Shown: positions 18,601-21,600 of the stretch, piece by piece
How the letters are laid out: each line of letters starts with the position of its first letter
How positions within the stretch are numbered: the first letter of the stretch is position 1
Assembly (NCBI RefSeq): GCF_053078305.1
Contig: NZ_CP166879.1
Direction: 5' to 3' (one strand)
DNA length: 64,000 bases
Position numbers: made by a program

Positions 18601-21600
18601 GGCTTCAGCAATTTTTTCGTTATAACCCGCCAGATTACGCACACCCAGCGCAGACATCAGTTTATACCGACGCTCCATCTCGTTAACACACCAGCGCAGC
18701 GCGTTGGCGGCATCTTTCATATCAGTAACGACTTCCGTTAACAGATGCGGAATGCCTTCATAAACCGAAAGCTCCAGCATTTTCGGGTCGATCATGATGA
18801 AACGCACATCTTCTGGCTGCGCTTTATAAAGCATGCTCAGGATCATCGCGTTCACACCGACAGACTTACCGGAACCGGTAGTCCCCGCAACCAACAAGTG
18901 CGGCATTTTCGCCAGATCGGCAACCACCGGCTCACCGGCGATATCTTTACCCAGCACCACGGTTAATGGCGACGGATTATCGCGGAATTTGGCGTTATCC
19001 AATACTTCGCGCAGATAAACGGTTTGTCGTTTTTTATTCGGTAACTCCAGACCTACATAGGGTTTGCCAGGAATAACTTCAACGACACGCACCGCCACCG
19101 TCGAAAGTGAACGGGCAAGGTCCCGTGACAAGTTAGAAATGCGCGCCGCTTTTACGCCCGGTGCCAGGTTAAGTTCAAAGCGAGTGATAACCGGCCCCGG
19201 AGAGTAATTGACGACATCGGCTTTAATACGGAAATCAGCCAGACGTGCTTCCACCAGACGCGCCATTTGTTCAAGCGCAAAGGTATCTACCGGCTCCACT
19301 TCGCTCGGCGGCGGTGTCAGCAAATCCAGAGAAGGCAGCGGCGTCGTCGGTTTATGCAACGGACGGCTGTCGCCATTACGCATCAACAGCGGATGAAGCA
19401 GAGTATCCTGCGGCTGTGGCGCAACTGGCTGTTGCGGCTGCTGATATTGCTGCTGTGGTGCAGCCGATTGTTGTGGCTGCTGATACTGCGGCTGCGGCGC
19501 AACTGGCTGTTGCGGCCGCTGATATTGCGGCTGCGGTGCAACCGGTTGTTGCGGCTGCTGATATTGCTGCTGCGGTGCAACCGGTTGTTGCGGCTGCTGA
19601 TATTGCTGCTGTGGCGCAACCGGCTGTTGTGGCTGCTGATACTGCTGCTGCGGTGCAACCGGTTGTTGCGGCTGCTGTACAGGTTCAACAATTGGCGTAA
19701 ACAACGGTTCGTGTGGACCATCATCCAGCAACGCTTTCATTGGCGAAAATTCAAAATCATCCAGCGAGAACGGATTCGCCCCAGCCGGTTGTTCGCCGGA
19801 ATAACGTTGTTGTTGAGTTTGCGCAAACTGACGAGCCAGTTCAGCCTCTGCCGCAGCATCTGCATCTTCTGCGTTTACGGGCACATCATGTTGATACTGT
19901 TCGCCATAGCGTTGCTGCTGTGTCTGGGCGAACTGACGTGCCAGTTCATCCTGCTGCATCGCATCGATTTCATCATCATTATACTGATCGCCAGAATCAT
20001 ACTGATTGCGCTGGGCTTCACGGGCTTTTTCTTCCGCCGCACGCTGTGAGGGCAGTTTAATACCGTAAGACGCCAGTTCACGACGAGTTGGCACGCGGAT
20101 ACGTTTCGGTCGTGGCAACTGCGGGCCAATCCCCTCTTTGACCTGCGGACGCGGTCCACCGCTATTTGCCAGACTGAAGACTGGCGCAGCAACGGTTGCG
20201 GCAGCCCCCGTCGCCAGTGTCGCTTTTTTCACGCCAGATGCCAGCGGAGAAACAGCGGCAGCGGCTTCTACTGGAGGTATTGCTGCAACAGAAGGTGCTT
20301 TCAGCGAAGATTTGATCGGTTCTGGTTCTTTAACCGGTTCTGGAATCGGTTGATACCAGGCCGCAAGTTGTTCACGTTCACGGGCTCGCTTCTCTTCCAC
20401 TTCTTCAAAGTAGTAAAGCGGCGGACGCGCGGGTTTTGTCTCTTCTACAACGGGTTCAGGCTCCACAACAGGCTGCTGTTCAACAGGTTGCGGCTGTTGG
20501 TACAACGGCTCCTGAGCGGCTGGCTGCTGATAAGTTTGCTCAGTCTGGTATGTAGACTGTGGAGCAAAAGTGGATTGCTGCTCTTCGGCTTGCCAGGCGT
20601 TACCTGCCACCGGTTGTTCTGGCGCAGGGGCATAATACGGCTGTTGCGCAGGCTGTTCCGGCGCAGTTGCGTAATACGGTTGCTGAACAGGTTGTTCCGC
20701 CGCAGGAGCGTAGTAAGGTTGTTGCGCAGGTTGTTCAGCTGCAGGTGCATAATACGGCTGCTGCGGCTGTACTGGTTGTTGCAGCGGCTCATTATATTGC
20801 ACTGCAGGCTGCGCATATTGTGACTGCTGTGGGTAACCTTCCGGTGCAGGAGCAATAACCGGCTCTCCCGTTTGTGGACCCGGTACAGGCTGCCAGGCTA
20901 CTGTAGGTTGCGCAGGTGGAACATCAACAGAGGCAACAGGTGGCGTCTGAGTCACAGGTTCAACCGGTGCAGCCCAGCTTTGCGTCGCCGTGGTAGCAGC
21001 AGCTGCTACAGCGACAGGTTCGGTAATTGGCGCACCGTTTAATAATGGATCGTATTCGTCATATTCTGGCTGCGTTGCACGATTGCCCGAAAATAGGACG
21101 TCGTCCGGGTCGGCAGCCACACCGCGTGCAGTGTAGGTAATCTCTTCGTCATCATCCATCCGCTTACCGGAGAACAACGCAGCGTCTGTTTGCCGCCCCA
21201 TCGGATTAATGAATTTTTCCGCCAACCGTTTACGACGCGCTAGCGCGCCGCGAAGAATACGGGCACGGCGTGATTCATGCTGTTTGCCGTGATTTTCATC
21301 TTCATACTCTTCGTCGTCTTCATACTCATCTTCATCGACCCAGGTATCATCGCGACGGGTACGATTACTGGCGAAGGTGAGAATGTTTAAAATCCAGCCG
21401 CCGAGTTTTTCAGCAATGGTCACCCATGACCAACCGGTGAACAACGTCAGGCCCGCTGCCCAAACGCAGAGCAGCGCAATAGTTCCCCCGCTACTGTGTA
21501 GCAGTGGTTGTAGCGTAGTGCTTAGTAAGCTGCCAATGACGCCACCGGAGGCAAAATACCAGATATCGTCAGCGTTGATTGCCGCCAGACCACAGGAGGT

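What the first reader, a model, noticed from the sequence alone, without database searches (positions are those of the whole stretch)
19415..20770. Variable-number in-frame tandem repeats in the ftsK linker
The FtsK linker contains near-perfect 39-bp tandem repeats ([13 protein letters not shown]) and a second set of [12 protein letters not shown] units, giving a 1368-aa protein, longer than the K-12 length I recall (1329 aa). Likely copy-number variation by slippage.
Basis: partly seen in the sequence, partly recalled or inferred. Interest (0 to 1): 0.2.

Follow-up and report, generated by a model that had tools for sequence, protein, structure and literature searches.

The report
Known variable repeats in ftsK linker
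The E. coli cell-division/DNA-pump gene ftsK carries two in-frame 39-base tandem repeat arrays whose copy number differs between strains; this is real but ordinary, because both arrays have served for years as strain-typing markers (ms06 and ms07/CVN001).

Summary
ftsK (window 17866-21972, minus strand, 1368 aa) has two in-frame 39-bp (13-aa) arrays in its Pro/Gln-rich linker. Array A has 4 units of [13 protein letters not shown] (20608-20763). Array B has 7 units of [13 protein letters not shown] (19405-19677).

Copy number varies widely. In samples of 60 from 5,426 complete E. coli genomes, array A has 2, 3 or 4 units in about a third each. Array B has mostly 6 or 7 units. Nineteen alleles read in full have 4-10 array-B units and give proteins of 1303-1407 aa, all in frame.

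One genome differs from the window allele by one substitution plus an exact 117-bp duplication of three units. Other alleles carry chimeric units at deletion junctions. These are the marks of slipped or unequal pairing.

The finding is not new. Published MLVA primers for ms06 flank array A exactly. Primers for ms07 and CVN001 flank array B exactly. The Salmonella counterpart is STTR7/SENTR2.

"Near-perfect" holds only for the peptide. Units are 78-87% identical in DNA and differ mostly at synonymous sites.

Verdict: real, correctly interpreted, already known, low interest.

The parts
17866..21972 (-). ftsK coding sequence (DNA translocase FtsK), 1368 aa, TTG start, lying between lrp and lolA
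   Evidence: ORF list. Pfam hits: FtsK_4TM aa 20-191, FtsK_alpha 879-979, FtsK_SpoIIIE 987-1200, FtsK_gamma 1303-1363. RefSeq annotation of the identical sequence in strain A16, with lrp upstream and lolA downstream.
19339..21399 (-). FtsK linker (aa 192-878), between the membrane domain and the alpha domain; composition Q 16%, P 15%, A 13%
   Evidence: Bounds come from the Pfam domain limits. Composition. The literature describes the linker as unstructured and Pro/Gln-rich (PMC5357621).
20608..20763 (-). Array A: 4 in-frame 39-bp units (aa 404-455), [13 protein letters not shown] / ...EQPV / [13 protein letters not shown] / [13 protein letters not shown], with a 78-bp super-period. This is MLVA locus ms06.
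   Evidence: TRF, in-frame register, unit typing. The ms06 primers match exactly at 20495-20514 and 20854-20873, giving a 379-bp amplicon (primers from PMC4553163 and PMC8215070).
19405..19677 (-). Array B: 7 in-frame 39-bp units (aa 766-856), consensus [10 protein letters not shown](Q/P)QY, ending 22 aa before the FtsK alpha domain. This is MLVA locus ms07 = CVN001.
   Evidence: TRF, register, unit typing. CVN001 primers match exactly at 19307-19326 and 19772-19790. The 484-bp amplicon gives (484-250)/39 = allele 6. The ms07 primers match at 19312-19331 and 19918-19937.

Best explanation
These are two coding minisatellites (VNTRs with a 39-bp, 13-aa unit) inside the disordered Pro/Gln-rich linker. 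The linker tethers the FtsK membrane/divisome anchor to its DNA-pumping motor. Copy number changes when repeat units mispair during replication (slipped-strand mispairing) or during recombination between sister or homologous copies (unequal crossing-over). Because the unit is a multiple of three, every gain or loss keeps the frame and only lengthens or shortens the spacer by 13 aa or multiples of it. The linker tolerates this, so alleles with 2-4 units (array A) and 4-10 units (array B) coexist in E. coli and largely track lineages. Shown here: the arrays, their frame, the polymorphism, and the duplication and deletion junctions. Inferred: the mispairing mechanism, and near-neutrality of length changes. 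The arrays are the known typing loci ms06 and ms07/CVN001.
For: Arrays and frame. FtsK domain map placing both arrays in the linker. Array A polymorphism in a sample of 60 from 5,426 complete genomes: 4 units in 20, 3 units in 21, 2 units in 18, plus one partial match that proved to be a 2-unit allele when read (L012). Array B in the same kind of sample: 7 units in 27, 6 units in 21, 4 units in 1, and eleven other or partial matches. Nineteen alleles read in full give 1303-1407 aa with no frameshift. Direct event signatures: ETEC6335 is the window allele plus 1 SNP and an exact 117-bp duplication, ABCABCDEFG against ABCDEFG. OkiPb01695 has a 117-bp deletion with a chimeric B/E junction unit. 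Three-unit array A alleles carry a chimera of units 2 and 3, and K-12 keeps exactly units 0 and 3. Identity with known loci: exact primer matches. Published allele ranges agree: ms06 alleles 2, 3, 4 with amplicons of 301-379 bp; CVN001 alleles 4-8 at 1/40/40/13/5%. Lineage stability: CVN001 is monomorphic in O25b-ST131, and K-12 derivatives all give the same spans. Tolerance: swapping an ftsK repeat indel between two S. Enteritidis strains did not change egg-white survival, the one phenotype assayed (PMC6137255).
Against: Nothing contradicts it. Three limits apply. Replication slippage and unequal recombination leave the same products and were not separated. Population frequencies come from 60-row samples of the ranked hit list, not from all genomes. 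Neutrality is inferred from coexisting alleles and one Salmonella experiment, not measured in E. coli. Strong conservation of the peptide between units (dN/dS about 0.10 and 0.02) shows the sequence is not free to drift, so the repeats are probably more than inert filler.
Confidence: 0.93

Rival explanations
1. Assembly artefact: the repeat number in this window is an error of assembly (collapsed or expanded repeats), not biology.
For: Tandem repeats are a classic source of assembly error. The window's source and sequencing method are unknown.
Against: The identical 4107-nt allele is present in three complete genomes, from an otter in Mexico and two pig isolates. Units differ from one another at 3-26% of positions, so each unit is individually placeable. 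The arrays are only 156 and 273 bp long. PCR-based MLVA independently measures the same allele sizes.
Confidence: 0.02
2. Adaptive tuning: copy number is a selected 'tuning knob' that sets linker reach or force-sensing between the septum and the DNA pump, and alleles are kept by lineage-specific selection rather than drift.
For: [quoted passage not shown] The repeat peptides are strongly conserved between units (dN/dS 0.10 and 0.02). Both arrays persist across Escherichia species.
Against: The largest changes seen alter a roughly 690-aa linker by less than 8%. Very different copy numbers occur on nearly identical backgrounds. Related genera have non-periodic PQA-rich sequence at the same place, and other bacteria have much shorter linkers. 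The one allele-swap experiment, in Salmonella, showed no change in the one trait assayed. No association with host or pathotype is visible in the hit lists.
Confidence: 0.04
3. Contingency locus: the repeats act as a phase-variation switch that turns ftsK, or part of it, on and off.
For: Tandem repeats inside genes are the usual substrate of phase variation.
Against: The unit is 39 bp. Every indel observed is a multiple of 3 (12, 24, 39, 78, 117 bp), and all 19 alleles stay in frame. The locus is monomorphic within clones such as ST131, so it is slow. By general knowledge, the ftsK N-terminal part is essential for division.
Confidence: 0.01

Closest known systems
E. coli/Shigella MLVA locus ms07 (Gorge et al. 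scheme) = CVN001 (Lindstedt generic E. coli MLVA, GECM-7/GECM-10)
   Same: This is the same locus as array B. Both published primer pairs match the window exactly and flank the array. The unit is 39 bp. Published allele frequencies (5 and 6 commonest, range 4-8) agree with my genome sample once Lindstedt's offset is allowed for (allele = units - 1).
   Different: Nothing biological differs. The papers I could read name the locus without saying that it lies in ftsK; I established that link by primer mapping.
E. coli/Shigella MLVA locus ms06
   Same: This is the same locus as array A. Primers match exactly at 20495-20514 and 20854-20873. The unit is 39 bp, the alleles are 2, 3 and 4, and amplicons run 301-379 bp. 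The window gives 379 bp, which is allele 4, the largest common allele.
   Different: Nothing differs. E. whittamii has 5 units, outside the E. coli range reported.
Salmonella enterica VNTR STTR7 = SENTR2 (39-bp repeat in ftsK)
   Same: A 39-bp in-frame repeat in the ftsK linker, with 9.3 copies in S. Enteritidis. A repeat indel at nt 2269-2352 corresponds in position to array B, which occupies nt 2296-2568 of the window allele.
   Different: A different genus with its own copy numbers. I did not read the Salmonella sequence itself, so orthology of the units rests on position and unit length as reported.
Other in-frame coding minisatellites in extended spacer proteins of enterobacteria (e.g. 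the tolA VNTR SENTR1/SE-10, 45-bp unit)
   Same: An in-frame repeat with a unit that is a multiple of three, used as an MLVA marker. By general knowledge it lies in an extended spacer region of an envelope protein.
   Different: A different protein and an unrelated repeat sequence.

Membership tests
FtsK/SpoIIIE DNA translocase (E. coli-type FtsK) | N-terminal 4-TM membrane domain | tested here: met
   PF13491 FtsK_4TM, aa 20-191, E = 5e-42.
FtsK/SpoIIIE DNA translocase (E. coli-type FtsK) | C-terminal alpha, beta (P-loop motor) and gamma domains | tested here: met
   PF17854 at aa 879-979, PF01580 at 987-1200 (E = 9e-88), PF09397 at 1303-1363.
FtsK/SpoIIIE DNA translocase (E. coli-type FtsK) | Conserved lrp-ftsK-lolA-rarA gene order of E. 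coli | tested here: met
   RefSeq annotation of the identical sequence; lolA and lrp ORFs flank the gene in the window.
VNTR locus CVN001 / ms07 | Published primer pairs flank the array | tested here: met
   Exact matches with 0 mismatches: CVN001 at 19772-19790(-) and 19307-19326(+); ms07 at 19918-19937(-) and 19312-19331(+).
VNTR locus CVN001 / ms07 | 39-bp unit, with copy number polymorphic between strains | tested here: met
   TRF period 39. 4-10 units in the alleles read. Spans of 601, 562 and 484 nt among 5,426 genomes.
VNTR locus ms06 | Published primer pair flanks the array; 39-bp unit; alleles 2-4 | tested here: met
   Exact primer matches at 20854-20873(-) and 20495-20514(+), giving a 379-bp amplicon. 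Spans of 501, 462 and 423 nt correspond to 4, 3 and 2 units.
Phase-variable contingency locus (simple-sequence repeat switch) | Repeat changes shift the reading frame or promoter spacing, giving on/off expression | tested here: not met
   All indels are multiples of 3, and all 19 alleles are intact ORFs.
Replication-slippage product, as opposed to RecA-dependent unequal crossing-over | The rearrangement arises without homologous recombination functions | not testable with these tools
   Junctions (an exact block duplication, and chimeric units) fit both mechanisms. Separating them needs recA+/recA- genetics.

The most novel reading that the evidence does not exclude
The 13-aa Pro/Gln units could be functional modules rather than filler. 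They might act as polyproline-II-like rigid spacers or as low-affinity contact sites for divisome proteins. Their number would then set the reach or tension-sensing of the FtsK motor relative to the closing septum, so copy-number alleles would differ measurably in the timing of chromosome dimer resolution or division. The only support found here is strong peptide conservation between units despite saturated synonymous divergence, and persistence of both arrays across Escherichia species.
Probability: 0.05. Interest if true: 0.35.

Novelty: already known. Interest (0 to 1): 0.07.

Why it matters
It matters little beyond bookkeeping. The length difference from K-12 is normal allelic variation, not an annotation or assembly problem. 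The two arrays give this strain's in-silico MLVA alleles: ms06 = 4 and CVN001 = 6. One modest point is useful. The repeats are conserved as peptides but scrambled at synonymous sites, which probably slows mispairing. That would explain why these loci mark lineages rather than outbreaks.

Tried and rejected
1) A full-text search for ftsK + VNTR + E. coli found only Salmonella papers. The E. coli link had to be made by mapping published primers.

2) A combined search for CVN001 or ftsK was swamped by general FtsK papers.

3) Whole-gene megablast breaks at the arrays in many genomes. Only rows with full coverage gave gene lengths, and partial rows had to be fetched and read.

4) A degenerate-DNA scan of one genome per species for the [10 protein letters not shown] motif next to array B returned only 10 loci and missed Salmonella. 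It sufficed to show both arrays in other Escherichia species and non-periodic sequence in Phytobacter, Trabulsiella and Cedecea. It did not date the arrays.

5) Long antisense ORFs over the arrays (e.g. 19245-19700 +, 19267-20049 +) were considered and rejected as genes. They are stop-free by-products of the repeat composition, opposite a well-supported ftsK frame.

6) I did not run the large protein-database searches or structure prediction. The protein exceeds the 1200-aa limit, and the answer did not depend on them.

Full report
**What is there.** The interval lies inside a 4107-nt ORF on the minus strand (17866-21972, TTG start, 1368 aa). Pfam identifies it as FtsK: 4TM domain at aa 20-191, alpha domain at 879-979, FtsK/SpoIIIE motor at 987-1200, gamma domain at 1303-1363. 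RefSeq annotates the identical sequence as ftsK, between lrp and lolA, in E. coli strain A16. The stretch between aa 192 and 878 is the linker. Its composition is 16% Q, 15% P and 13% A. The literature describes it as unstructured and Pro/Gln-rich (PMC5357621).

**The repeats.** Tandem Repeats Finder reports two arrays of period 39.
- One lies at 19409-19677 (6.9 copies, 86% matches, score 391).
- The other lies at 20612-20765 (3.9 copies, 77% matches, score 175; also period 78, score 206).

In the reading frame, array B has seven 13-aa units at aa 766-856 (19405-19677). The first three are [13 protein letters not shown], followed by [39 protein letters not shown] and [13 protein letters not shown]. 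Array A has four units at aa 404-455 (20608-20763): [39 protein letters not shown] and [13 protein letters not shown].

Periodicity is far beyond what composition gives. Lag-39 identity is 0.855 for array B and 0.761 for array A. Codon-shuffled controls give 0.49 and 0.36, and none of 2000 shuffles reaches the observed values. No other tandem repeat in the 64-kb window scores 60 or more.

Its interval also spans about 930 bp of non-repeat linker. 'Near-perfect' applies to the peptides, not the DNA, since units are on average 87% (B) and 78% (A) identical.

**Copy number varies.** I compared the window with 5,426 complete E. coli genomes and took 60 records at even steps down each ranked hit list.
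- Array A with flanks: spans of 501 nt in 20 records, 462 nt in 21 and 423 nt in 18, which correspond to 4, 3 and 2 units. One further record matched only partly; when read, it proved to be a 2-unit allele (L012).
- Array B with flanks: 7 units in 27 records, 6 units in 21, 4 units in 1, and four records with spans 24 or 48 nt shorter. Seven records matched only partly. The two of these that I read have eight units (TUM1586) and five full units plus a truncated one (EFF60).

K-12 strains have 6 and 2 units, which gives 1329 aa (L002). So the 39 extra residues here are two units in array A and one in array B.

I read nineteen alleles in full. They encode 1303-1407 aa, with 2-4 units in array A and 4-10 in array B. 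Some carry sub-unit deletions:
- 24 bp, leaving a 5-aa 'QQPQY' unit;
- 12 bp in array A.

Every allele is in frame.

**How the changes arise.** Typing each unit by its nucleotide sequence shows the events directly.
- ETEC6335 ftsK differs from the window allele by one substitution and one 117-bp insertion. The insertion is an exact tandem duplication of units A-B-C (ABCABCDEFG against ABCDEFG).
- OkiPb01695 has a 117-bp deletion. Its junction unit has the 5' part of unit B and the 3' part of unit E.
- In array A, K-12 retains exactly units 0 and 3 of the window's 0-1-2-3.
- Three-unit array A alleles carry a unit made of the 5' half of unit 2 and the 3' half of unit 3.

Exact block duplications and chimeric junction units are what misaligned pairing between repeats produces. 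This can happen during replication (slippage) or by unequal crossing-over. The sequence cannot tell the two apart, so that step is inferred.

Near-identical alleles (at least 99% identical) range from -3 to +3 units, so changes are recent on that scale. The locus is also stable within clones. CVN001 is monomorphic in O25b-ST131 (PMC5217547), and K-12 derivatives all agree.

**Peptide conserved, DNA not.** Between units of the window allele, most differences are synonymous. For array B, pS = 0.40 and pN = 0.055, giving dN/dS of about 0.10. For array A, pS = 0.74 (saturated) and pN = 0.061, giving a ratio of about 0.02. Across 15 alleles, the full-length array B units comprise 47 distinct nucleotide sequences but only 17 distinct peptides. 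Two peptides account for 26 of those 47 sequences.

The units are thus old and constrained as peptides. The synonymous scrambling should reduce mispairing, which fits a slowly changing marker. This last point is inference.

**Taxonomic spread.** Other Escherichia species (E. albertii, E. whittamii and unnamed Escherichia spp.) have both arrays with other copy numbers. Array A has 2-5 units, and array B has about 2 to about 9. Phytobacter, Trabulsiella and Cedecea have P/Q/A-rich but non-periodic sequence at the position of array B. Salmonella is reported to have a 39-bp VNTR in ftsK, called STTR7 or SENTR2, with 9.3 copies in S. Enteritidis (PMC2430564). A repeat indel at nt 2269-2352 sits at the position of array B (PMC6137255).

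**Comparison with what is known.** Both arrays are established typing loci.
- The CVN001 primers of the generic E. coli MLVA (unit 39 bp, offset 250; PMC8143711) match the window exactly at 19772-19790 and 19307-19326. The 484-bp amplicon is allele 6.
- The ms07 primers, stated to be the same locus as CVN001 (PMC4553163), match at 19918-19937 and 19312-19331.
- The ms06 primers match at 20854-20873 and 20495-20514. The 379-bp amplicon is the top of the published 301-379 bp range, with alleles 2, 3 and 4 (PMC8215070).
- Published CVN001 allele frequencies are 4/5/6/7/8 at 1/40/40/13/5%. They agree with my genome sample once the one-unit offset is allowed for.

[quoted passage not shown] The changes seen here alter it by less than 8%. 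Exchanging an ftsK repeat indel between two Salmonella strains did not change egg-white survival, the one trait assayed. The best reading is a length-tolerant spacer in which in-frame unit gain and loss is nearly neutral. A tuning role is not excluded, but nothing here supports it directly.

**Verdict.** The phenomenon is already known and in routine use as ms06, ms07/CVN001 and STTR7. Interest is low.

Noticed in passing
window 19801-19842 and 19906-19947 (minus strand; FtsK aa 711-724 and 676-689): A third, dispersed two-copy repeat, [14 protein letters not shown], lies in the linker between the two arrays. Unlike the PQ arrays, two ELARQFA...QQQRY-like copies are also present in Phytobacter, Trabulsiella, Cedecea and an uncultured Enterobacteriaceae genome. 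This suggests a conserved linker motif, possibly a contact site.
   Followed up: partly
window 19405-19677 and 20608-20763: Units within each array differ mainly at synonymous sites (dN/dS about 0.10 and 0.02; array A synonymous sites are saturated). The 13-aa peptides are therefore under purifying selection while the DNA repeat is degenerate.
   Followed up: partly
L015 (E. albertii NBRC 107761), just upstream of position 4328: In E. albertii most of array B is replaced by a run of 11 alanines followed by only about two PQ units. This is a different low-complexity solution at the same place in the linker.
   Followed up: no
window 21295-21336 (minus strand; FtsK aa about 213-226): A weak 6-bp periodic tract (TRF score 35) encodes the acidic run [14 protein letters not shown], just after the membrane domain.
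   Followed up: no
window 20324-20351: A short 12-bp repeat (2.3 copies, TRF score 35) encodes VVEPEPVVE in the linker.
   Followed up: no
E. coli genome searches with window 19250-19850 and 17866-21972: 21 of the roughly 14,400-14,800 matching places lie on plasmids rather than chromosomes. I did not list them, so it is unknown whether they are ftsK fragments, other PQ-rich genes or misassigned contigs.
   Followed up: no
L012 (E. coli 2014C-4135), locus 1-459: In this genome the lrp gene next to ftsK is annotated as a frameshifted pseudogene. It could be a sequencing error or a real loss of the global regulator Lrp.
   Followed up: no
window 19245-20060 and 20350-20855, both strands: Several ORFs of 100-260 aa overlap the arrays in other frames and on the opposite strand. 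They are stop-free by-products of the repetitive CAG/CCG-rich sequence and should not be called as genes.
   Followed up: partly
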